Assembly (NCBI GenBank): GCA_027923505.1
Contig: BROI01000012.1
Span: forward strand, 310,001-374,000
From: Mayamaea pseudoterrestris
Taxonomy: Eukaryota
Direction of reading: 5' to 3'
Length of the DNA stretch: 64,000 bases
Position numbers and translations under genes: made by a program. Every line of letters begins with the position of its first letter. Positions within the stretch are counted from its first letter, which is position 1. The notes beneath the pieces are model-generated. The model saw only the letters and a list, made by a program, of their open reading frames with translations. It was not told the origin of the DNA and made no database searches. Positions 44,075 to 64,000 of this stretch are shown here, in pieces.

Positions 44075-45745
44075 TTACAGCGGGCACGACACAACGGCTC
44101 CCACCAGTCCATTCGCTCGATAGAGACATGACTGCATGAACAAGCCACACACATCGGCCACTAATATTCCAATCGACTCGGCCACACTCGTGGCGGCCAA
44201 GGCAAACTCGGTTTCATGCGCCGGCTTGTCCAATACAATGCGCTTGTAGCCGTGCACGTAGACGGCGCCACCAAGCAAACCAGTGTACAAGCATATTCCG
44301 TACATGAGCAAGGGACTGTAGAGCCAGCTTGTTGGTGTCACAATGATTTGTTCACTGTCATTCTCACGAACAATCACAGTCGCTGCATAGTTGGCCGCCA
44401 CCAAGACAAAAAAGAGTAGATTGAAACACTGCAGCAGCGGCAACATCCACAATACCGTCAGTGACAGCGTCACCATGGTGCCCGACGACCGCGACACAAA
44501 GACTCCCATTTGATACAACCAATTGGCATTCGTGTAGAAGCGACTCCGCGCGTTTACGTCCGTGACGGGAAAGCCAACGGCCGTCCAAGCGCCCGACATG
44601 CAGGCGTACTCGGCTGCGTAGACGATAAAGAGTGGAACGGTATATGGCCAAAGGGCAAATATTTGGTAAAAGCGCTGGGAGAGTGTTAATTGAGGGCGAT
44701 TTGATGGAGATGGAGACGGAGACGAAAGAGTTTCGTAATGCTGTTCGTCTTGATGTTGCTGTTGTTGCTGAATCATGGTCGACGACAAGGGGTCGAGCTG
44801 CAGGCGGACCTGGCTCGTCAATGGAATTTGCTCGTCGCTCTCTTCACCATTAGTGCCGTCGTCAAATTGAACATCATCCGTGTTGCGACGCTCTCGTCGA
44901 CTGTCAGTAGAGTGGCGGAGGTAGTCACCCATGTTTCGAAAAAAGACGTAGTAATACGCCAAGGCCAAGAAGATTCCCGACAGTAGCGTCGCCTCCAACG
45001 TCCAGCCAATCCATTGCGTCAAGACAACCTTCCAACCAAAGGCAAAGACTCCGCTCAAGCCAGTTCCCGATGAAAAGCTAGTGAGGCAGCTTGCGGATGA
45101 TGGTACAGCGTCGGTATTGCTTTGCTTGTTTTCATAGATTGCAGCTTGCGGCAACTCATGCGCAGTTGTTCCGCTTGTTCCATTCGCTTCCATTCCTAGC
45201 ATTATTCGACTAGTCGTTGCTTGCTGCTGCTGCAGCAGTTGTTGCTGATCCAGTTTACCAGCCAGCGCCAGCAACGACGCTTCGCCCAAACCACCCTGCA
45301 ACGCCATGACTGCCACTCCAAACAACTGCCCATGCACGTTGTTTCGCCAGTGACAGTAGGCCACAATTACGAAAGCCACTCCCATGATGACTGCCGCTAC
45401 TCGCATGCGCCTGTTGTACGTCACCAAATGGAACCAGTGCGGCGCCGACGCCTTTATCACCAAACTGGGAAGGACGGTGGCTATAAAGACGAGCGCCGTG
45501 CCACCTTCGGAAATGCTCTTGGCGCAGGCTAGCATGAGACAGTAACTGGCATTGTTCAGTAAACCGAGTGTGAAGAATGAAAATGATAGTGTATTGGTGT
45601 TGTTGTTTTGTATAGTGATGGATGTAGTCGCTAATGGCGTCGAGGCAGCCTTGAGCTTATTGCTGATGCTATTTCGCTCGTTATCATTGTCTGCTAGCGT
45701 CTCAGAATGACTACTGTCATCCATTGTAATGCTTCGACGAGACAT
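44075..45745 (-). CDS. CLN3: Battenin / CLN3 family lysosomal-vacuolar membrane protein, 556 aa
   Basis: FFTLGLLNN, GLGEASLL, FSSGTG, PLFIVYAAEY, YQMGVFVSRSS and GLLGGAVYV. Confidence 0.9.
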   Translation of the reverse strand: MSRRSITMDDSSHSETLADNDNERNSISNKLKAASTPLATTSITIQNNNTNTLSFSFFTLGLLNNASYCLMLACAKSISEGGTALVFIATVLPSLVIKASAPHWFHLVTYNRRMRVAAVIMGVAFVIVAYCHWRNNVHGQLFGVAVMALQGGLGEASLLALAGKLDQQQLLQQQQATTSRIMLGMEANGTSGTTAHELPQAAIYENKQSNTDAVPSSASCLTSFSSGTGLSGVFAFGWKVVLTQWIGWTLEATLLSGIFLALAYYYVFFRNMGDYLRHSTDSRRERRNTDDVQFDDGTNGEESDEQIPLTSQVRLQLDPLSSTMIQQQQQHQDEQHYETLSSPSPSPSNRPQLTLSQRFYQIFALWPYTVPLFIVYAAEYACMSGAWTAVGFPVTDVNARSRFYTNANWLYQMGVFVSRSSGTMVTLSLTVLWMLPLLQCFNLLFFVLVAANYAATVIVRENDSEQIIVTPTSWLYSPLLMYGICLYTGLLGGAVYVHGYKRIVLDKPAHETEFALAATSVAESIGILVADVCGLFMQSCLYRANGLVGAVVSCPL

Positions 45746-47114: not shown

Positions 47115-48928
47115 ATACATATAATAGATATTTTCTATAGCAAAATACATTTACATGGTAGAGTACAGTACTATGCGTACTGTTTTGCTTTGCTTCACAA
47201 CTACAAGTACTGTAGTGTATGTATACAATTTCATGCATCCACTGAAGTTAGCTGAAGTATCGGTGGGACATTTGTTTTTGAAACGATTGCTTTTTTACTA
47301 TTGCCTGAAACAGCTGATAATTGGTCCAAAACGATCCGTTACAACTTGCACTTCACTCTCCACGCTAAGTAACGGACTACACAACTGTTGACGTGTAACC
47401 CAACGATGCAGCCTCATTCTTCGTTCCATTCATAAGTAGATATCATAACATTCGCTGAACTCAAGCGTTTATAGCATGCCAAACAAAGCCGTTTGGAGCG
47501 CTGCTGCTCTCGGCGTTTCAGGTGCGTATCTTTTGAACGAAAACCTCAAAGATCGCCGTGTCAAGCAGGAGGAGGAACAACAGCGTCAGATGTATGAGGT
47601 CCAAGAGGAAAAGAAACAACGTGCAGCGGCGATGAGACAGAGAACTGGTAGTACTGCAACTTGGGCGAATGGTGATGCAAACGCAGATAACTTGTCTCCA
47701 TTCTTTGCCGCGATGAGGGAACGATGGGCAATGATGCTTGACGACCTTGAAATTCTAGCAAAGAGCTCCCTTGGACGACAAAAGTCCTTCAAACTGCCTC
47801 TTATTCCGTCAGAGCATAACGATGCTGCCGAAGTTGTGCTTGGAGCATTACTCGCGCTAGGTGATCCAGGTATGGCCGAGGATCTCCAAAAGTATTCCCA
47901 AAATCCCGGTCTTGCATTAGCCAAATTGTCAGCAGCATCTTTGTCACTCATTCGAGGTGTCTTTGAACGAAAATGGCCATATGATATCAGTGATGGCGAT
48001 CTGGGAGGAATTGTGCAGCTTGCGATTCGAGACGATGGTCCACAGCAAGGCGAACCTTCCATGTTTGTTCTTGAAAGCTGTAAGCGGAACATTTCAGATC
48101 TTGCTGGTTTGGTGGCAAGCCTGGGCCTATACATATTTCAGGAAGATTGCTTCCAGAATAAGCTGTGCGGCACGCCGCCAAAACTTCGCATGAGGTTCAC
48201 TACCGCTTCAACTGGGTGGAATGCAACTGGGTGGAATGGGCGACTCTACTTGACCAATTTCCCGAACAAGAGTTTTTCTCTACCAGCCTACCAAACAAAT
48301 CAGAATACATGGGCGTGTAGCTATACAAATGTCCGTCTGGAAAGTGGTACGAGTCAAACATGCCGTGCTCCTAACCTCGAACGGGCCATGTATCATCTCG
48401 CTACGGCCATGGCGTACAGAACTGCCAATGTTGCCGCAAGCCGCTTGAAAGAGCTAGAAGAAAGCCTCTTAGTTGCAAAACCCAATCCTTGGAACCAAAA
48501 AGGATTGTCACTGGAGCATGTGGCAGTCAAAGCTTGTAATGAAACGGAACTGCTGCAAATCCTGGAGCAGAGTGATCGCACGCTGATTGAACACAATCAA
48601 ACCAAGATCTGCGAGACAATATCGTCTATTCTAGAAATAAGTATTCCTTTTCCTGAAAATCCGCTGGATACGGATGAAGTCCAAGGTCCGTCGCCTGCAT
48701 TGAAAATGGAGGTGGCTACCTTCGCACAAGAATACGTCCAGTTGCTCAATCTGTCGTACTGCGAAGTGCCTAAATTTCGAAACAAAGCTCCATCTCAATG
48801 TGTCAGCAAGTCGCGGGTGACTGACCAAGCTATCAAAGGTTTCATAACAGCAGTGCCCCCAGCGCATCATCGCTTGCGTCGAAAGTACGAGAAAAACGAA
48901 CGCGATCGGTACGTTCTCGAGTTTAACT

Positions 48929-49134
48929 TAGCAGGTATGCAACAGAAAGTAGTATCACTATGCCGTTAAAAGTAGCGCACCTCGGAATCGAACCAAGGAT
49001 AACCGGCTATATCACCTCTAAACACGCTGCTACTTTTCCGTCTGCTAGTGTACTATATGCTGCATACAAGGCACCATGCACTATGACAAGTAAAGGTATC
49101 GCTCTGGTTGCTGTTTTTCGTGTGCAACCTGCTA
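48929..49134 (-). repeat. TRIM 3' LTR, 206 bp
   Basis: Identical by eye to 49400-49605; preceded on the minus strand by the PPT. Confidence 0.93.
48973..49031 (-). ncRNA. tRNA-like 59-nt element in the TRIM LTR (second copy at 49444-49502)
   Basis: AGCAGCGTGTTTAGAGGTGATATAGCCGGTTATCCTTGGTTCGATTCCGAGGTGCGCTA then CTTTT. It has a T-arm with B-box GGTTCGATTCC and paired ends, but no proper anticodon arm. Confidence 0.5.
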
Positions 49135-49399
49135 CTCCCCTAGCTTTGCGCGTCATAGTGCTAACTCGTCTTCCGTTTCAGCTGGCATTTTCGTCTCGCG
49201 GGGGAATGTCACTTTTCAGTTTTTCCTGCGGCGTTTCGGGCTCGGCGCATCTTTGTGCACTCCCCAGGGTCCGCGACTCCCCATCGTTCGTTCGTGACAA
49301 ACCCGTGCAACCAGTGAATTTTTTGCTTTTTCTTCGCTTGATTCGATCGCAACTCGAACCAGCAGCCTCAGTCCAGATCTCTCGATAGGGACGCTACCA

Positions 49400-49605
49400 T
49401 AGCAGGTATGCAACAGAAAGTAGTATCACTATGCCGTTAAAAGTAGCGCACCTCGGAATCGAACCAAGGATAACCGGCTATATCACCTCTAAACACGCTG
49501 CTACTTTTCCGTCTGCTAGTGTACTATATGCTGCATACAAGGCACCATGCACTATGACAAGTAAAGGTATCGCTCTGGTTGCTGTTTTTCGTGTGCAACC
49601 TGCTA
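49400..49605 (-). repeat. TRIM 5' LTR, 206 bp
   Basis: Identical by eye to 48929-49134; followed immediately on the minus strand by the TGG-initiated PBS. Confidence 0.93.
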
Positions 49606-50106
49606 AACTGGTGGCCCTTCCACCATGTTAACAGTAAATTTCTAATTCGTGCCATTTGTAACAGGATTGATCGCAGCAGAAGTTTGGTCACACCTAGTCC
49701 ATTCTTAACAACAGCTTTCTTGGTTGGAGTTTGTGTCCTATTCGTTGCTTCGATGTGGACTATGTTCTATCTCCTTTTTGCCCGTTACATTGGCATCCAT
49801 GCATTTGTTTTAGCAGGACAGTTCATTTGCTCAGTTGGACTTGGCGTTTGGAGCGCAATGACAACGCTGCAAATACTACGATACCCTTTCCGCGTTCAGA
49901 ATGGCGATTCATTAGTGAAAGATGCTTGGCTGGTGTCCGAATGCATCGTTGAGACATTTGTGCGCAAGCTCGCGATCCTTTGTGGCAAACCTCCGTTATT
50001 CGAGAGAGAACTACATCGATTGCAAGTGGCTTGTAAGCAAACGCACCATGTTTGGAAACGCCGAATGGCCCGGCGGGATTTTTACGTCGCTCTCAAGCGA
50101 AAGTGA

Positions 50107-52700: not shown

Positions 52701-53524
52701 ATGGCTGACGCTCCTCCTGTCCCTCACGCCATTGGGGGCCCCGCCGGCATCTCGACCAACGCCTCACTCCTCGACTTCTTCGCCTCGCCGACCAACGACG
52801 CCCTTCGCGGCAACAGCCGCGCGTGGATTGAGCAGCTCGACCCACTCGTCCACGACTACGATGGCGCTGACATTCTCGAACGAATCGTCAGCGTGCCTCC
52901 GACGCGCGCCGGCGCTTACATCCGTTACCATCGCACGGAACCAGGCGACGCGATCGGGACGATCAAGGTTTACACTGGCTTTCAGCAGTACGTCGCGGGC
53001 CTCGTCATGACGCCCCTCGACGGGCGAGTCTACGCCACGCTGGGCAACCTCGTCGCCGGCCAAGGGCACTGTGTACGCATCGTGGAACGCGACTTCGACG
53101 CCCTACCGAACAAGACGATCCCAACGACCGACGATATCGCGTGCGCCTGGTGGGACGACCACGACTGGACCGGCATGCTAGGCAACTGCGTACTCCAAGA
53201 CCCGGGATTCGTGGATGACGGTTCGGTCGGCGACCCGCTTCCGGGACGCGTGGCGCGAGTGCGACGCACGTGCTACTTGCAGCACGAGCTGGTGGAGCTT
53301 CTGATGGATCACGACTACGAACCCGCCAAGGCCTACCGCACCGTGTTGCATCGCGCGCGAGCGCTCGACCAAGTCGACAATTATCGTGAACTACTCGACT
53401 TTCTCCTTGTCTGCGCCACCTCGGAGCGGAACAATCGACCGGCGTCGCTCGCCTTGGCGCCGCCGCCGGTGCCAGTGCTGATGACGCAATCCCTCGCCGA
53501 GCAGCGTGTCGCCGTGCATCGCAT
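52701..53524 (+). pseudogene. 3'-truncated GC-rich ORF fused to the copia LTR remnant; possibly ORF1 of another retroelement
   Basis: ATG-initiated frame of about 275 codons runs directly into LTR sequence at 53525, and its stop comes from the LTR. Identity is not established. Confidence 0.45.
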
Positions 53525-53630
53525 TCACGCGATCGTGAGGCTGTGGTGAGCCGCGAGTGCCGCTGTGTCACCCTATCGGACATTCGGTGTGACTTGCCCG
53601 ATTTTCGCTGTTTTCGTTCGCATCCTGCAA
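53525..53630 (-). repeat. Copia 3' LTR remnant (106 of 247 bp)
   Basis: Matches 59792-59897 and adjoins the PPT. The distal part and TSD are missing. Confidence 0.9.
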
Positions 53631-53654
53631 CTCCCCTCAAGTCATACCTAATAG

Positions 53655-56600
53655 TTAGATTCTTTGAAGAGCAGGTTCTTTAAGTGCTTGCTTGCCGTAG
53701 CCCGTGGAAGAAACTTGGTAAGTACATCCGCCGGGTTTGTCGTTCCCATGATGTGGTTGGAAATTAATAATTCCCGCCGCAATCGCTTCGCGTACACGGT
53801 GAAATGCCAGTGCATTGTGTCGCTTCGTCAGACTAGAGTGCGGTAGGTTGCTGCTTTGCGTTACCGACTTGTTGTCTCCAAACATCCATGAAGGTCCGTC
53901 GAGCGGAACTCCCAACATGCGTAGCGTGAAGCGAAGATCCATGATCTGCTCCGTGCTCACTCTCGCTGCTACAAACTCCGAGCCGTACGTCGCCGTCTCG
54001 ACCGTCGCTTGGCGTTTCGAAAACCAATCAACGACTGTTCCATTCAACATGTGTAGCATGCCCATCGCTGCCCGTCCCGTCGTGTAATCGTGGTACAGGT
54101 TCGCATCTTCGAACGTTGACATTCGCACCGCCTTGCCGCGCGGCGTGGGCATGTTCCACGGAAGCTCTTCGCAGATCTTGCCGTACACACTGTAATCCCA
54201 ATCCATCTTGTCAACTGTCGCGTATCGCTCGTCCGTTGGAATCGAAACGTTGAATCGAATCGCTCCATCCGGGTATCTTCGTAAGTATCCGCAAATATGC
54301 TTCAACCGTTCCAAGTGCCCCGCTCGTGGCGCAGCTCGGAATCTCCCCATAGTCATGACAGCACAGTGAATGTCGAATCGACATAAACTTACTGCCCATT
54401 GCAACGCACCAATTATCGATTGATACTTCGCAATTCCGTCGTCGTCAAGTTCTTTCGTTTCGTCGAGTTCCGGATGATCGCCGTCGCGTAGTGGACTTGT
54501 CTGCGGTCGCGGTTCCTCGCCGAACATTTCTTTGTAGTTCGCTAGTAGTCTTGTGACGTACTTCTTCGCTCCGAAGCAGAGTACGCCGTCGTCGTCTCGC
54601 CAAACGTCTGCGCCCAAATGATATGCCAATGGACCGACGCCCTTCAACTTGTAGTTGTAGTTCTCAATTAAAAGATCCGTTAGTTCCTTCGGATTCTTCA
54701 TCGCTATCGCTAAATCGTCGACATACACACAAACGTATTCGTAGTGCGTGCCTTTATCGCGCATCCACACGTCCGGTTCTGCGATACACGGCATGAAGCC
54801 AATGTCGCGGAGCGTGTCTGAAAAGTGCTCGTGCCAGCGTGCGCCTGACGTGCGAAGACCGTATAATGCCTTCACGATCGTGAGCGTGTGACCCTCGAGC
54901 TCCCCGAACTCCGGACCTGCCACGATATAAACCTTCTCTTTCGTTTTCGCTTCCAAGTATGCGTTGCCGACGTCAGCTGCCCACAGTTCCAGACCGTTGA
55001 GTTCCGCTAACATCGCTACCATTCGTAGACTTCGCAATGACACAACGCCCGAGTAAACTGAATCCTTCGGCGGCTCTGTCATATGTCCTCCTGCAACGAG
55101 TCGTGCTTTCCGTCGCAAATCGTGCTTGACATCGAATATCATGTGCACGTTTATTCGTTTCCACGGCGTCGGCATAACCTTACCGACTCCTTGATCTGCG
55201 AACGTGTCGTAATCATTTATCTGATTTAATTCCGTTCGAATCGCATCCGTCCACAGCGTGTTGCCGTTGATCTCGTCGAGAGCTTTCGCATCTTTATAAT
55301 TGCGCGGCAACCTTACGCCGAATTTGTAGCGTACGCCGTTTGCTTTCGATTTTCGTTTCGCCGCTGTTACCATCTGTCGAAACTTCTTTCGCTTCCGAGT
55401 GTAATGCTCCAGCTGCTTCCATCCTGGCTTGTCGAGTAAGCCGTGCTTGAGTCCATACTCTGCGATCGTTATCGGATCGTCCTTCTTCATGATCGCGAGA
55501 GGCTCCCACGTCGTCGTTCCGTCAGTCCACTCGACGAGAACGTTACTTGAACTTCCTTTGTATGTCGGATCGTTCGGTTTCAAATTAAGCTCGTGTCCGA
55601 TTACCTTCGTGAATACCCACTGAGTCGCCGGATCGTTTCGTATATCTTCGTCCATCTGTCGTTCGATTAAATCCGACAGTTCGTTGTAACTTATTAAGTC
55701 TTTCGCTGGCTCCTCTCCCATTTGGATTAGGAAACCTTTCGTCGTTTCGAGTAGCTCGTTATCGCGTACTTCGATATATTCGCATACAGTCGCCGCATTT
55801 TCTGACCGTTTTCGTGTTCCCTTACGAACGTAGGTCCGATGAGTTCGCTTGGGAGAAGCAGAGGGCATTTATTCCCTGATTCTTGCTCAGCCCCTTCTGA
55901 AGAACTCGCTGGTACGTTGGCGTGGTTCGCCATCGGAATTGTTTCGTCGTCGTTTCCTTCGTAGTTGTCGTGACTACTTTCTGTCACATGCGTGCTATGG
56001 TAGCGTCCTGTCGCGAGATCTGGAGTTTCAAAATTTCGCTCGCTTGCGCGTGTAGCTTCTTCAGAAATCTCCCCTCCAGACTCAGGGAAGGAAGGCAACT
56101 CGTGGTAACAAGTAGCTGCGCGAGACCACGTTGGAGCGCGGAATCGCCTGAAGCGTGTCGTCCGTCAGAACGAGAAAAGTCATGTGCGGACCGCTATTCT
56201 CTGCGATGCCCACGAATCGGCCGTTGCCAGATCGTACCGCCGAGGGAAAACTCCCCTGCGCCTCAAACGTGACCGGTTCCCACCACTTGAAATGTAACAA
56301 AGGCGAAATATCCGGCAGATTTCCGAACGCAACTTCCGTTGGCGTGCGCCATCCCAGCGATTTCGTCGCGAGGACGTTCAGTATCATGATTACGAATTTA
56401 ATCAGCAAAACCCAGCAATGGCCTGGCGAACCCGAATCTCGTTGGAGGTTCTCCATCATTGGCTTAATGTGCGACGTGTGACGTTCGCATGGATTTTGTT
56501 CTGGATGACCCGGTTCTGTGGTCACTTGAGGAATATTGTACATCCGACAGAGATCCTCACAGCCTTGCCAGTCTCCGACTTGGCATTGTCGCTGAGCAGT

Positions 56601-59650: not shown

Positions 59651-59897
59651 TTGCAGTTGCTACAATACGAGAGACGAATAAATCGCTTTCTTAACTCTTC
59701 AAGCTTAGTAAGTCTGCTTGTTTCTACTCTATATCGCACTAGTTTCAGCAATATACTTGTTGAATCGCTTCGAAGCCGTCGCTGCCACGCATCACGCGAT
59801 CGTGAGGCTGTGGTGAGCCGCGAGTGCCGCTGTGTCACCCTATCGGACATTCGGTGTGACTTGCCCGATTTTCGCTGTTTTCGTTCGCATCCTGCAA
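59651..59897 (-). repeat. Copia 5' LTR, 247 bp
   Basis: Bounded by the inverted repeat TTGCAG...CTGCAA. The right 106 bp match the 3' LTR remnant. The left boundary is inferred from the inverted repeat only. Confidence 0.75.
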
Positions 59898-60481
59898 CTG
59901 GCGACAGTGCAGTGCAACCATGAAGCTCCCAAGTTCATTTCCAGTGACGGGCCCTCTGCGGCCACTGGGGTGGAATACGGAGGTGATTGTAAGGGCTGCA
60001 GTGTCAAGGGGAGTCAAGGCAGTGGTCAGTGGTCCTAGCAAGGCAAGAGCACAAGAGTTGTCAAGGTTCCTGGCGACAGTGCAGTGCGACCATGAAGCTC
60101 CCAAGTTCATTTCCAGTGATGGGCCCTCCGCGGCCACTGGGGTGGAATACGGAGGTGATTGTAAGGGCTGCAGTGTCAAGGGGAGTCAAGGCAGTGGTCA
60201 GTGGTCCTAGCAAGGCAAGAGCACAAAAGGTGTCAAGGTTCCTGGCGACAGTGCAGTGCAACCATGAAGCTCCCAAGTTCATTTCCAGTGACGGGCCCTC
60301 TGCGGCCACTGGGGTGGAATACGGAGGTGATTGTGAGGGCTGCAGTGTCAAGGGGATTCAAGGCAGCTGGCAGTGGTCCTAGCAAGGCATGAGCACAAGA
60401 GTTGTCAAGGTTCCTGGCGACAGTGCAGTGCGACCATGAAGCTCCCAAGTTCATTTCCAGTGATGGCCCTCTGCGGCCACT
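59898..60481. repeat. 172-bp tandem array (~3.4 copies); a further degenerate copy at ~60733-61005
   Basis: CTGGCGACAGTGCAGTGC recurs at 59898, 60070, 60242 and 60414 with near-identical units. Confidence 0.95.
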
Positions 60482-61760
60482 GTGCCAAAGCTCAAACCTG
60501 CTCCAATGAGCTAACCTGTGCCAATGCACCGACTTGCTCCAATGACCTAACCTGTGCCAATGCATGAACCTGCTCCATTGAGCTAACCTGTGCAAAAGCT
60601 CGAACTTGCTCCATTGAGCTGACCTGTGCCAATGCATGGCCTGCTCCATTGAGCGAACCTGTGCCAAAGCTCGAACCTGCTCCAATGAGCTAACCTGTGC
60701 CAAAGCTCAAACCTGCTCCAATGAGCTAACCTGAGTCCCGACTCTCTCCAGTGACGCTAACGCCTGTGAACGGAGGTGATAGTAGGCTGCTGTCAAGGGA
60801 GCCAAGCAGTTCAGTGTCCTAGCAAGGCAAGATGGCGTTCCTGAGTGCAGTCAAATGAACGTTCTGCCCTCTGCCGGACTGGAGGGTGTAAGGCTGCAGT
60901 GTCAAGGGATCAAGCACTGGCTGTCCTGCAAGGCAAGAGCGTTCAGTTCCTGGCCAGTGCATGCGACCATGAAGCTCCAAGTTCATTTCCAGGAGCCCCT
61001 GCGCACCGGCAAACCTGCTCCAATGAGCTAACCTGTGCCAATGCACTGACTTGCTCCAATGACCTAACCTGTGCCAATGCACGAACCTGCTCCATTGAGC
61101 TAACCTGTGCCAATGCATGGCCTGCTCCATTGAGCAAACCGGTGCCAATGCATGGCCTGCTCCATTGAGCTAACCTGTGCCAAAGCTCGAACCTGCGCCA
61201 ATGAGCTAACCTGTGCCAATGCACGAACCTGCTCCAATGAGCTAACCTGTGCCAGTGCACCAACTTGCTGCAATGAGCGAACCTGTGCCAATGCACCGAC
61301 TTGCTCCATTGAGCTAACCTGTGCCAATGCACGAACCTGCTCCAATGAGCTAACCTGTGCAAAAGCTCGAACCTGCTCCATTGAGCTGACCTGTGCCAAT
61401 GCACGAACTTGCTCCATTGAGCGAACCTGTGCCAATGCACCGACTTGCTCCATTGAGCTGACCTGTGCCAATGCACGAACCTGCTCCAATGAGCTAACCT
61501 GTGCCAATGCACCAACTCGCAGCAATGAGCGAACCTGTGCCAATGCACCGACTTGCTCATGGCTGACTTGCCATTCATGAGCTAACCTGTGCCAATACCG
61601 GAGCGAACCTGTGCCAAAACTTGAACCTGCTCCAATGAGCTACCTGTGCCAATGCACCGACTTGCTGCAATGACCTAACCTGTGCCAATGCACGAACCTG
61701 CTCCAGTGAGTGAAGCAGCGCCAATGCACCAACTTGCATCAATGCGTTAACCTGCGCCAA
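60481..61760. repeat. 36-bp minisatellite built from alternating 18-mers, in two blocks (~60481-60732 and ~61010-61760)
   Basis: Consensus GAGCTAACCTGTGCCAAT + GCACGAACCTGCTCCAAT, decaying toward 61760. Confidence 0.95.
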
Positions 61761-61880
61761 TGAGCTGTCAGTGATGTGACAGGCCAGTGAAGTTAAGTAA
61801 TGGGTAGAAATCCAATAGTACATTGCGCTATACTTGTTAAATCAATACCACTGCCAACCAGTGTAGTTAACCAGCATGGG

Positions 61881-64000
61881 TTAAGCAAGATCAAGAGGTG
61901 GCAAATCAACATCAGCACGCTGTGCAATGATTGTCTGCAAACTTGCCCATATGTGCACAGGGATACGTTCGCGCCCCTTTGCACGACCAGTTGGGGTGTG
62001 GCCAGCGTCTTCAAAATTGAATGGACCATATACAAAGCATGCTGGGTCCGTAAGTGTAACGGGGCTGGCTGTGGCAATGTATTTGCCTGGGTCAGGGATG
62101 CGTTGCGCTTGGAATTCTGAGCGCTTGTCACTGAGAATCAAATTGCCGTCAGAATCCACAGTGTATTCACGCCATTCGGTGCGCCAGCGGTGATGATTCC
62201 AAGGGAGGTGTGCATCAGAGTTTTTGCTTGCCTGAAATTCACAATAGTATGTACCCGAATCCTTGTAAGTCTGCGTGCCGGCTGAGCGAGCTGAAGCGTA
62301 CAGGTCTGCTTGAACCAAATGAAGCTGAGGATTGAGTGTACCTTCTGTCACAAAGTTGATAAAGAACAGTTTATCTTCGGAGCCTTCGATTGCCGCAAAC
62401 AAGGCTCGTGGGTCAAGGCAACAAATGCTTGGGTTGTCATGCGGTGAGACTCGCTGGCGTTTTCGTGCTGGTTGCCGTGGAGGAAGGACAAGTTCTGGGG
62501 ATCCCTCAACAATAGTGAGGAGTTCTTCGTTCAATGAATCAATAGTTGGTACAGCAGGATTGGTGGCATCAATGATGGCAGGCACAAGTGGGAGGGGTGC
62601 ATCAGCATCGGGCGGTGGTGGATCCTCGCCATGGAGCCATAAATGGTTGTAAGAGTCAATTCCAAGTGCATCCTTCAAAGGATTTAGCACCGGTGCGCGG
62701 TCCTGGTTCAGATAACGATAATCAATGGAATCAATGGGGCTACAGGGCTGCAAGACAGGAGGCAGAGGCACCAGCAAGCTACCTTTGACGTGACGAAGTG
62801 CACTGGTGGGTTCATCCAGTTTGCGCACATCATACGAGTCGTGACCGGTTGTTGCAATCACCTCAAATGGACCCTTAAAGTTGTAAACAAGCTTGCCAAC
62901 ACGACCTTGAGCAGCATCGCTCTGGACTTGTACTTGGACTGCGACTTTGTCACCAACTTGAAATGATCGGGGCTTGCGGGTGGCATTGATGCGCTCACGA
63001 TGGAGAGTACGTCGTTCGTCAACTAAAAGAGCTAGTATTTCCCGACTCAGTGCAAGGTCTTCACTAACACCAGCAAGGTAACGCTGAACACTCAATGCTT
63101 GGTCATCGGCTGGTTCAGGAAGTGCCTCCATGGCTACCTCAATCGGAAAGCGAAAGACTCGTCCACAAACCACATAGCTGCGCACAATATCCGTCCCTTC
63201 AATAGGCATTGAATTGGAAGCATATGCAGCCAAGGAGGCAACCTCCACATACACTTTGTTGCTGCGGCGCTTGGAGCATTCAATGGTCAAGACTTTATTC
63301 AGATAACGATGGAAACGCTCGCAACGACAGCCTTGATGGTTGCCTTTTGCCAAAACAAGATAATCAAGTTGTAAGGCAGTGCACATGTCTTTGAAATACC
63401 CTTTGAACTTGCTGTCATCATCGATGACAACGCGTGAACAGATACCATACTTGAAGAGCACATCCGCACAAAAGTGGCGAGCAAAGGTAGCCGCTGTGGC
63501 CTTGACAAAGGGTACAATGACCACGAAGCCAGTTAAATCACATACAATGGTTAGAAGACCCGTATAGCCACCATGGAAGGACGTAGTGGAGCCAGGCGCA
63601 AAGGCATCAACATGGAGTAATGCCATAGGTTGCTCAAGAACTGTGCCATGCAGCAATGTGGTAGATGGGCGGTTCACTGCATTTGCCAGGAGGCATTCAG
63701 GGCATCTCTTTATGGCTTGCTCAACATAGCGCTTCATGTGGGGCCAAATGAAGCGCAGGCGTAGGCGAAGAAATGTCTTTCGTTCCCCCATGTGTCCTGC
63801 ACAAGGCGTGGAATGATACGCTTCAAAAACACGCCGACGCAAGGAGTCAGGTACCACAATTAGCTGAATAGCTCGTTGGTCGCGAAGGACTGGCTTGAGG
63901 CACATGAGACGACCATTTTCAATCCAAAAGTGCTTGGCTCTAATGAGTGGGCGAAACAATTCGCTCACTCGGCGATAATCCATTGGCTCCCAAGCTGCGT
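61881..64000 (-). mobile_element. Ty3/gypsy pol 3' end: integrase with a long C-terminal extension; the ORF continues past the window
   Basis: HHCC motif YHSTPCAGHMG...CPEC, DDE core LHVD / IDDDSKF / CERFHR and GPF/Y motif KGPFEV. Integrase is the last domain of pol, which is the gypsy order. No stop between 63983 and 64000. Confidence 0.9.

What the first reader, a model, noticed from the sequence alone, without database searches (positions are those of the whole stretch)
48973..49502. TRIM LTRs contain a 59-nt tRNA mimic whose 3' end can pair with the element's own PBS
Seen: each LTR has, in sense orientation, AGC...GCTA followed by CTTTT. It forms a T-arm (CCTTGG-TTCGATT-CCGAGG, B-box GGTTCGATTCC), has a possible weak D-arm and lacks an anticodon arm. 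The outer stem AAAAGTAGC/GCTACTTTT closes it. With CCA added, its 3' end (AGGUGCGCUACCA) pairs with the PBS UGGUAGCGUCCCU at 12 of 13 positions, including one G-U. Known precedents: plant Cassandra TRIMs carry 5S-derived Pol III promoters in their LTRs, and mascRNA is a similarly small tRNA-like RNA that receives CCA. Inference: a tRNA-type Pol III promoter in a TRIM, or a self-encoded primer.
Basis: partly seen in the sequence, partly recalled or inferred. Interest (0 to 1): 0.8.

Follow-up and report, generated by a model that had tools for sequence, protein, structure and literature searches.

The report
Diatom mini-retrotransposon with tRNA-derived LTR module
This is a small, recently inserted non-autonomous LTR retrotransposon whose repeats carry a decayed tRNA-derived promoter-like piece, a design already described in 2024 as "Helenus" but apparently not yet in diatoms, and the idea that it makes its own primer is not supported.

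Summary
A 677-bp TRIM lies on the minus strand (48929-49605). It has two identical 206-nt LTRs, a 4-bp TSD, a PBS abutting the LTR and a short PPT. Each LTR carries an exact B box/T arm followed by CTTTT, and the quoted 12-of-13 pairing with the PBS is correct, though 3 of those pairs come from an assumed CCA.

The module is mis-delimited. ARAGORN at 98% of its thresholds draws an 83-nt cloverleaf with remnants of all arms and a long variable arm. These are the only two hits in the window. Infernal's tRNA model does not match, and the cloverleaf is thermodynamically unfavourable (+1.8 vs MFE -17.2 kcal/mol). It is therefore a decayed tRNA-derived module, not a functional tRNA.

TRIMs of this kind are already described as Helenus/"TRIMp3" (Kojima 2024, PMC10886601), in fungi, animals and Selaginella. 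The host here looks like a diatom and the partner is copia-type, so this is a new member in a new host lineage.

Self-priming is unlikely. The PBS core recurs in a relative that lacks the module, and the PBS starts TGG as for host tRNA priming. It cannot be excluded, because the host tRNAs could not be read and the register-exact complementarity is unusual (about 2 in 10,000).

The parts
48929..49605 (-). Whole non-autonomous LTR element (TRIM), 677 bp
   Evidence: Self-BLAST and the repeat finder; read in sense
48925..48928 (.). Target-site duplication AACT, left copy
   Evidence: Read directly; the same 4 nt occur at 49606-49609
49606..49609 (.). Target-site duplication AACT, right copy
   Evidence: Read directly
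49400..49605 (-). 5' LTR, 206 nt, termini TAGCAGGT...ACCTGCTA (8-nt inverted repeat)
   Evidence: 100% identical to the 3' LTR over 206 nt; terminal inverted repeat
48929..49134 (-). 3' LTR, 206 nt
49387..49399 (-). Primer-binding site TGGTAGCGTCCCT, directly abutting the 5' LTR
49135..49141 (-). Polypurine tract AGGGGAG, directly upstream of the 3' LTR
   Evidence: aligned with the PPT of the copia-type element
   Evidence: ARAGORN at 98% thresholds
48972..49054 (-). tRNA-derived module in the 3' LTR
   Evidence: ARAGORN at 98% thresholds
49455..49465 (-). B box GGTTCGATTCC (5' LTR copy; the other copy is at 48984-48994)
49509..49518 (-). A-box-like TAGCAGACGG (5' LTR copy; the other copy is at 49038-49047)
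   Evidence: position 8 onward of the ARAGORN cloverleaf
49439..49442 (-). T4 run right after the module (5' LTR copy; the other copy is at 48968-48971). These are the only T runs of 4 or more on the element's sense strand
53607..53637 (-). PPT and LTR start of a copia-type element, homologous to the TRIM's PPT and LTR start (also at 59874-59899)
   Evidence: RVT_2 ORF 53655-55868 (-), E = 5e-26,
55973..56024 (+). Segment 87% identical to the TRIM's LTR end + PBS + leader, with no tRNA-like module upstream
47476..50106 (+). Host open reading frame interrupted by the TRIM. Removing TRIM + TSD (681 nt = 227 codons) leaves one open 649-codon frame
   Evidence: empty-site contig

Best explanation
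The element is a Helenus-type TRIM: a 677-bp non-autonomous LTR retrotransposon in a diatom-like genome.

**Shown:**
- Two identical LTRs, a TSD, a PBS and a PPT.
- Insertion into a host ORF that is empty in a related organism.
- LTR termini, PPT and PBS/leader that resemble copia-type sequences in the same window.
- In each LTR, an 83-nt decayed tRNA-derived module in sense orientation. It has an intact B box, an A-box-like motif at tRNA spacing and a T4 run right behind it.

**Inferred:**
- Copia-type proteins move the element in trans.
- Reverse transcription is primed by the 3' end of a host tRNA. The PBS reads TGG + T + AGCG..., that is a tRNA ending ...CGCUACCA with an A1:U72-type end. 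From recall, that end is the mark of eukaryotic initiator tRNA.
- The tRNA-derived module is a captured tRNA or SINE head. It serves, or once served, as an internal Pol III promoter, as proposed for Helenus and shown for Cassandra. It does not make a working tRNA or a primer.
- If Pol III is used, the genomic RNA would start just upstream of the module in the 5' LTR and read through the weak T4. It would then end at the T4 of the 3' LTR, which makes the module itself the R region.
For: **Anatomy.** LTRs are 206/206 identical, with TSD AACT, PBS abutting the LTR and PPT AGGGGAG.

**Mobility.**
- 4 of 4 public runs laid hold the TRIM with 0 other letters.
- The one flank-bearing contig (X2, 47 differences in 407 nt) skips 48907-49665.
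- Other flanks or diverged LTR pieces appear in X7 and X3.

**Copia link.**
- PPT and LTR start align with those of an element carrying an RVT_2 ORF.
- LTR end + PBS + leader are 87% identical to 55973-56024.
- A 4-bp TSD is also reported for the diatom copia element Blackbeard (passage in PMC2806351).

**tRNA origin.**
- The exact B box is expected 0.06 times per window.
- ARAGORN at 98-95% thresholds hits only the two LTR copies in 64 kb. The random-sequence rate is 5 hits in 25.6 Mb at 98%.
- With the T arm kept and the upstream part replaced, a call arises in 18 of 3000 shuffles and 49 of 4000 real window segments.
- The A-to-B box start distance is 53 nt, and the only sense-strand T4 runs follow the module.

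**Known class.** Kojima 2024 describes TRIMs with tRNA-derived LTR sequences, conserved A and B boxes and copia partners in fungi. He judges them unlikely to encode functional tRNA.

**Diatom host.** All named homologues of the neighbouring CLN3 gene are diatom proteins.
Against: - Infernal/Rfam gives no tRNA match, even on a 106-nt slice at E <= 10.
- ARAGORN at default thresholds finds nothing.
- The cloverleaf evaluates to +1.8 kcal/mol against an MFE of -17.2 for another fold.
- The A box reads TRGC-A, not Kojima's TRGCY.
- There is no conservation test. The copies recovered are identical throughout, so the T arm is no better conserved than the rest. No diverged copy could be fetched.
- There is no evidence on transcription. 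The host tRNA set is unknown.
- The register-exact 9-of-10 complementarity of the module's 3' end to the PBS (about 2e-4) is left as coincidence or shared tRNA features.
- The PBS-bearing relative at 55973-56024 sits antisense inside the copia-type region, and its own status is unclear.
Confidence: 0.68

Rival explanations
1. This is an ordinary Pol II-driven TRIM whose LTR only resembles a tRNA by chance. The B box, T arm and stems are part of a nested-hairpin LTR structure with no tRNA ancestry.
For: - There is no Rfam tRNA hit and no ARAGORN hit at default thresholds.
- The cloverleaf is unfavourable.
- The folds of the 59- and 72-nt pieces are not better than shuffles.
- The LTR is built of nested inverted repeats, and the whole LTR folds with z = -2.18.
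- Near-threshold ARAGORN calls do arise in random sequence: 5 in 25.6 Mb.
Against: - The joint chance of an exact B box (0.06 per window) and a callable 5' part (0.6-1.2%) is already small. It must also fall inside 206 nt of LTR, in sense, followed at once by the element's only T4.
- A described class of TRIMs has exactly this layout.
Confidence: 0.18
2. Self-encoded primer. Pol III transcribes the module, it is trimmed and CCA-tailed, and its 3' end anneals to the element's own PBS to prime reverse transcription.
For: - The pairing is 11 WC + 1 GU of 13 with CCA added, or 8 WC + 1 GU of 10 without. It lies in exactly the register where a CCA tail would meet the TGG of the PBS. That level is reached by about 38 of 200,000 random 10-mers.
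- It is the best PBS-complementary site in the LTR.
- A T4 run follows the module.
- No such complementarity was seen in any Helenus family, so this case stands out.
Against: - The duplex has a U:C mismatch and a G:U in its middle.
- The PBS core TGGTAGCGTCC recurs in a relative without any module. The PBS therefore looks inherited from a lineage that must use a host tRNA.
- The acceptor stem is weak and the cloverleaf unfavourable.
- The 9-bp outer stem would sequester the 3' end.
Confidence: 0.06
3. Cis-acting tRNA mimic. The module lies in R/U5 of the genomic RNA. By resembling the primer's acceptor/T-arm end, it pairs with or competes for the PBS, or attracts primer-handling proteins, and so tunes primer annealing rather than supplying a primer.
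For: - It rests on the same complementarity.
- The module lies 43-125 nt upstream of the PBS on the same strand.
- From recall, retroviral leaders have U5-PBS pairings, and HIV-1 has a tRNA-like element near its PBS.
Against: - The predicted fold of the 191-nt LTR-PBS region does not pair the module with the PBS and is not better than shuffles (z = -0.27).
- The transcription start is unknown, so it is not known whether the module is in the RNA.
Confidence: 0.05

Closest known systems
Helenus (TRIMs with tRNA-derived LTR sequence; 'TRIMp3'), Kojima 2024, PMC10886601 (abstract, Results, Discussion, legends/tables read; supplement searched)
   Same: - Short LTR-PBS-PPT-LTR element.
- A tRNA-derived stretch with A and B boxes in sense in the 3' half of each LTR, followed by a T run.
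- A copia-type partner and a TGGTAGCG-type PBS, as in some rust-fungus families.
- Not a functional tRNA.
   Different: - The host is diatom-like; Table 1 of the paper lists only fungi, animals and Selaginella.
- Three window motifs of 11-15 nt have 0 matches in the supplement's consensus sequences.
- The module is more decayed, with no Infernal hit.
- The TSD is 4 bp with a copia-type partner, whereas fungal Helenus has 5 bp.
- The module's 3' end is complementary to the PBS, which Kojima did not find in any family.
Cassandra (plant TRIM with 5S rRNA-derived LTR module; seen only as described and cited in PMC10886601 and PMC13570524, otherwise recalled)
   Same: A TRIM with a small-RNA-gene-derived internal Pol III promoter and terminator in both LTRs.
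   Different: The module here is tRNA-type, not 5S; there is no 5S hit in Rfam. Pol III transcription is shown for Cassandra and untested here.
tRNA-derived SINEs (SINE2)
   Same: A decayed tRNA head that keeps A and B boxes but no tRNA fold. Kojima proposes SINE insertion into an LTR as the origin of Helenus.
   Different: SINEs have no LTRs, PBS or PPT and depend on LINEs.
Tf1/sushi self-priming LTR retrotransposons (recalled; only a search listing of PMC11042837 was seen)
   Same: An element-encoded RNA segment complementary to its own PBS.
   Different: In Tf1 the primer is the first 11 nt of the transcript, cut by RNase H, and it matches perfectly. Here the match is imperfect, needs a CCA tail, and the PBS has the TGG of tRNA priming.
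mascRNA / HIV-1 tRNA-like element (recalled)
   Same: Small tRNA-like folds outside tRNA genes. One receives CCA; the other sits near a PBS.
   Different: No homology was tested, and the fold here is not predicted to be stable.

Membership tests
TRIM (terminal-repeat retrotransposon in miniature) | Two direct LTRs flanking a short internal domain, total length about 1 kb or less | tested here: met
   206-nt LTRs, 265-nt internal domain, 677 bp in total
TRIM (terminal-repeat retrotransposon in miniature) | PBS after the 5' LTR, PPT before the 3' LTR, and a target-site duplication | tested here: met
   TGGTAGCGTCCCT abuts the LTR; the PPT is AGGGGAG; the TSD is AACT
Helenus / TRIMp3 (Kojima 2024) | tRNA-derived sequence in the LTRs | tested here: inconclusive
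   For: an ARAGORN cloverleaf at 98% thresholds, the only hits in the window, with background rates of 0.0125 per window and 0.6-1.2% conditional. Against: no Rfam tRNA hit. tRNAscan-SE, the paper's own tool, was not available.
Helenus / TRIMp3 (Kojima 2024) | Box A (TRGCY...YGG) and box B (GGTTC) conserved | tested here: met
   Box B is exact (GGTTCGATTCC). Box A is TAGCA...CGG, so TRGC and YGG are met and the Y position is A. Conservation across copies could not be tested.
Helenus / TRIMp3 (Kojima 2024) | Sequence homology to a described Helenus family | tested here: not met
   0 occurrences of three window motifs in the supplement's consensus sequences. The paper treats Helenus as having multiple origins, so homology is not required for the structural class.
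Helenus / TRIMp3 (Kojima 2024) | Transcription by RNA polymerase III | not testable with these tools
   No RNA holder was listed. This is also untested for Helenus itself.
Cassandra / Ajax | 5S rRNA-derived sequence in the LTR | tested here: not met
   No 5S match in Rfam at E <= 10 on the element, nor at gathering score on the window
Retrozymes | Hammerhead ribozyme in the LTRs | tested here: not met
   No ribozyme family among the Rfam matches
Functional tRNA gene | Stable cloverleaf recognised by tRNA models, with a 7-nt anticodon loop | tested here: not met
   8-nt loop with mismatches in the acceptor, D and anticodon stems; +1.8 kcal/mol; no Infernal hit
Self-priming LTR elements (Tf1-like) | Perfect complementarity between the transcript's own 5' end and the PBS, with no tRNA-type PBS | tested here: not met
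   The complementary site is internal to the LTR and imperfect (8 WC + 1 GU of 10). The PBS starts TGG. The transcript's 5' end is unknown.

The most novel reading that the evidence does not exclude
The LTR-borne tRNA-like module is transcribed by Pol III, trimmed and CCA-tailed. It then serves as a dedicated, element-encoded primer, or as a PBS-directed decoy, for reverse transcription of this TRIM. That would be a third way of priming LTR retroelements, beside host tRNA priming and Tf1-type self-priming. The register-exact complementarity to the PBS, absent from all described Helenus families, would be its signature.
Probability: 0.07. Interest if true: 0.8.

Novelty: new member of a known kind. 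Interest (0 to 1): 0.38.

Why it matters
TRIMs that carry a small-RNA-gene promoter in their LTRs (Cassandra, Helenus, Ajax) blur the line between SINEs and LTR elements, and they inflate tRNA gene predictions. A diatom case with a copia-type partner would extend the class to stramenopiles and support repeated independent origin.

It would also give diatom genome annotators a concrete family to mask. The element is recently active: its LTRs are identical, it sits inside an ORF, and the site is empty in a relative.

The PBS complementarity is a cheap hypothesis to test once the host's tRNA set is read. A negative result would close the self-priming idea for this class.

Tried and rejected
- **Whole genome:** none is held. 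Host tRNA-iMet could not be compared, and other genomic copies could not be collected.
- **RNA evidence:** no RNA holder was listed for the stretch, so nothing can be said about expression. The kind of run X2 is not on record, so its depth (964 on the TRIM contig against 4 on the flank contig) is neither a copy number nor an expression level.
- **Covariation across copies:** the main contigs of 4 of 4 runs are identical to the window over the TRIM.
- **Searches for relatives, all empty or chance:**
  - Metagenome contigs: 0 hits for an LTR-end/PBS pattern and 0 for the module's 22-mer.
  - Prokaryote genome contigs: 0 and 0.
  - Viral contigs: 0 for a 23-mer. There were 4 loci for a 16-mer that match over only 16-18 nt and hold no tRNA.
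- **Earlier findings of this scan:** nothing relevant.
- **Literature search for the PBS letters:** only unrelated primer or construct hits by title.
- **Bacterial promoter/terminator scan:** not informative for a eukaryote.
- **Read-through copying of the primer tRNA as the module's origin:** considered and rejected. That would place the tRNA's complement, not its sense, next to the PBS rather than inside the LTR. This is reasoning, not a test.
- **Derivation from initiator tRNA:** considered and rejected. The T loop is TTCGATT and ARAGORN draws a long variable arm. From recall, initiator tRNAs have A54/A60 and no long arm.

Full report
**What is there**

Read on the minus strand, 49605..48929 is a complete miniature LTR retrotransposon.
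- It has two 206-nt LTRs that are identical over all 206 positions. The repeat finder reports 211 nt at 99% because it runs a few bases into the flanks.
- The LTRs begin TAGCAGGT and end ACCTGCTA, an 8-nt terminal inverted repeat.
- The element is flanked by AACT on both sides (48925-48928 and 49606-49609).
- TGGTAGCGTCCCT directly follows the 5' LTR (49399..49387).
- AGGGGAG directly precedes the 3' LTR (49141..49135).
- The internal domain is 265 nt, too short for gag or pol.

**Evidence that it is a real, recent insertion**
- It sits inside a + strand reading frame (47476-48969 and 49579-50106).
- Taking out the element and one TSD copy (681 nt = 227 codons) leaves a single open frame of 649 codons.
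- When four public runs were laid on 48500-50000, all 4 held the TRIM with no differing letters apart from a one-base poly-T length difference.
- The only contig that carries the flanks (run X2, 47 differences in 407 nt) jumps from 48906 to 49666 with three other letters between. That related sequence therefore lacks the insertion.
- X7 shows the LTR end joined to a different flank, and X3 shows diverged LTR pieces with other flanks.
- In three runs the element appears as a 500-nt contig, and in X2 as a contig that 'goes back 471'. I read this as the assembly-graph cycle expected from two identical LTRs 471 nt apart. Tandem arrays or one-LTR circles would look the same, so this reading is an inference.

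**The tRNA-like module**

What the tools add is set out below.
1. The exact B-box consensus GGTTCGANTCC occurs only in the two LTR copies, against 0.06 expected per window.
2. ARAGORN finds nothing at default thresholds. At 98%, 97% and 95% of its thresholds it reports exactly two candidates in the whole 64 kb, the two LTR copies.
3. The candidate is 83 nt long, c[48972,49054] and c[49443,49525]. Its parts are:
   - acceptor AGTACAC/GTGCGCT (5 Watson-Crick pairs, 1 G-U, 1 mismatch);
   - a D arm with 3 of 4 pairs and a GG-containing loop;
   - a weak anticodon stem with an 8-nt loop;
   - a 4-bp long variable arm;
   - the T arm, a discriminator A, then CTTTT.
4. Background rates for ARAGORN:
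   - First-order Markov sequence of the window's composition gave 3, 5, 33 and 396 hits in 25.6 Mb at default, 98%, 95% and 90%. At 98% that is 0.0125 per window.
   - I kept the T arm and 3' end and shuffled the 137 nt upstream. This gave a 98% call in 18 of 3000 trials.
   - Replacing that part with real segments of the window gave 49 of 4000.
5. TAGCAGACGG sits at cloverleaf position 8 onward, 53 nt before the B box. The T4 run after the module is the only run of four or more T on the sense strand of the whole element.

Against a working tRNA:
- Rfam's covariance models give no tRNA match on 951 nt or on a 106-nt slice at E <= 10. The only matches are chance-level snoRNA and miRNA hits around 15-16 bits.
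- The ARAGORN cloverleaf evaluates to +1.8 kcal/mol, while the same 83 nt prefer another fold at -17.2 kcal/mol.
- The perfect 9-bp outer stem uses the D-arm 3' half and the trailer, so it competes with the cloverleaf.

My reading is a decayed tRNA-derived head that keeps promoter-like boxes, as in SINEs.

**Relatives in the window**
- The TRIM's PPT and first ~30 nt of LTR align with the PPT and LTR start of a minus-strand element (53637..53607, and again at 59899..59874). The adjacent ORF of that element (53655-55868) carries RVT_2, the copia-type reverse transcriptase, at E = 5e-26.
- The TRIM's last 25 nt of LTR, its PBS and ~15 nt of leader are 87% identical to 55973-56024 on the + strand. 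The first 11 PBS letters are the same.
- Upstream of that segment there is no similarity to the TRIM LTR and no B box. There is no ARAGORN candidate either, even at 90%.
- The same arrangement lies on 5.4-6.3-kb contigs in three other runs, so it belongs to a repeated element.
- Its antisense position inside the copia-type region is unexplained.
- No integrase or gag domain was found in the ORFs between 55,900 and 59,900, even at E <= 1.

**Host**

All homologues of the neighbouring CLN3/battenin gene (44075-45745) that carry an organism name are diatom proteins, at about 37-42% identity. They come from Nitzschia, Fistulifera, Pseudo-nitzschia, Skeletonema, Stephanocyclus and Cyclotella. I take the host to be a diatom or a close relative. 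This rests on one gene.

**What is known**
- A full-text search led to Kojima 2024 (PMC10886601). I read its abstract, Results, Discussion, figure legends and tables and searched its supplement.
- The paper defines Helenus as TRIMs with a tRNA-derived sequence in the LTRs. Box A (TRGCY, YGG) and box B (GGTTC) are conserved.
- Helenus was found in rust fungi and some Agaricomycetes, in six animal phyla and in Selaginella.
- Fungal families share PBS regions with copia elements and make 5-bp TSDs. Animal families pair with gypsy elements and make 4-bp TSDs.
- Together with Cassandra and Ajax they are called TRIMp3. Pol III use is shown only for Cassandra.
- Its Table 1 lists no stramenopile. The supplement has no 'diatom', 'Bacillariophyta' or 'Stramenopil'.
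- The supplement also has none of three window motifs, although TGGTAGCG-type PBSs (13 occurrences) and GGTTCGATTCC (15) occur in rust families. Its consensus sequences show the same layout: tRNA-like piece, T run, then a short LTR tail.
- Further searches found no diatom Helenus: 'Helenus'/'TRIMp3' from 2024 and diatom + TRIM terms.
- A P. tricornutum re-annotation lists 27 'putative TRIM/LARD' without detail (passages of PMC5859163).
- A 2025 diatom TE preprint has no 'TRIM', 'tRNA' or 'SINE' term apart from the program TrimAl.
- A legend in Maumus 2009 gives a 4-bp TSD (TTCC) for the diatom copia element Blackbeard (PMC2806351). This fits the 4-bp TSD here.
- These searches cover only the held library.

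**How it most likely works**
- Shown: the anatomy, the insertion and the sequence kinship with copia-type termini.
- Inferred:
  - Trans-mobilisation by a copia-type element.
  - Priming by a host tRNA 3' end. The PBS starts TGG and implies a tRNA ending CGCUACCA. From recall, such an A1:U72 end is typical of eukaryotic initiator tRNA, which many copia elements use.
  - The module as a captured tRNA/SINE head acting, now or formerly, as an internal Pol III promoter.
- If Pol III is used, the module would be the R region, with read-through of the first T4 and termination at the second. None of this is tested.

**The self-primer idea**
- The complementarity is real and unusual: 8 WC + 1 GU of 10, in the exact register for a CCA tail. 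About 38 of 200,000 random 10-mers reach it, and it is the best site in the LTR.
- It is still a post-hoc observation.
- It has a mismatch and a wobble in mid-duplex, and it would need a processed acceptor end that the sequence does not support.
- The PBS core is shared with a relative that has no module.
- I put the self-primer at about 6%, and a cis-acting mimic role at about 5%.
- A predicted fold of the LTR-PBS region does not pair the two.

**Verdict**

The self-primer is unsupported. I file the element as a new member of a known kind, in a host lineage where I found no report. Supplements that I could not fully see, namely Table S1 and Figures S1-S3 of Kojima 2024 beyond the text hits, might list further hosts.

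Noticed in passing
window 47476-50106 (+): The TRIM sits inside a long ORF with no Pfam match. TRIM + TSD is 681 nt (227 codons), and excision restores one 649-codon frame. A related organism's contig lacks the insertion and differs by a further in-frame stretch (it skips 759 nt and has 3 nt in their place).
   Followed up: partly
window 55973-56024 (+): A 53-nt LTR-end + PBS + leader segment, 87% identical to the TRIM, lies antisense about 105 nt upstream of the copia-type RT ORF. The same arrangement is on 5-6-kb contigs in three other runs. It has no second LTR copy in the window, and its role is unexplained.
   Followed up: partly
window 53508-53632 and 59775-59899 (-): Direct repeats of about 125 nt (108 nt identical) bracket 6.3 kb holding an RVT_2 ORF. 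After the upstream copy comes TGGCAGCGACGG, a possible second PBS type. The long minus-strand ORFs between 56,000 and 59,500 have no Pfam match (no gag or integrase seen).
   Followed up: partly
window 61881-63983 (-): A 700-aa ORF with Integrase_H2C2, zf-H2C2 and a Tf2-1-like SH3 domain. This is a gypsy-type integrase, so both LTR superfamilies are present in this window.
   Followed up: no
window 59898-60469 and 60425-61804: Three tandem copies of a 172-nt unit start exactly at the edge of the copia-type LTR. They are followed by a long array with 18/36-nt periodicity that overlaps ORFs on both strands.
   Followed up: no
window 48929-49134: The LTR is built of nested inverted repeats: 8-nt termini, a 17-nt pair at 82% and a perfect 9-nt pair. 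The whole LTR folds better than shuffles (z = -2.18), with the T arm at the tip of the long hairpin.
   Followed up: partly
window 44075-45745 (-): An intron-less CLN3/battenin gene. Its best non-self homologues are unnamed, at 54-57% identity, and the named ones are diatom proteins at about 40%. The host therefore seems distant from sequenced model diatoms.
   Followed up: partly
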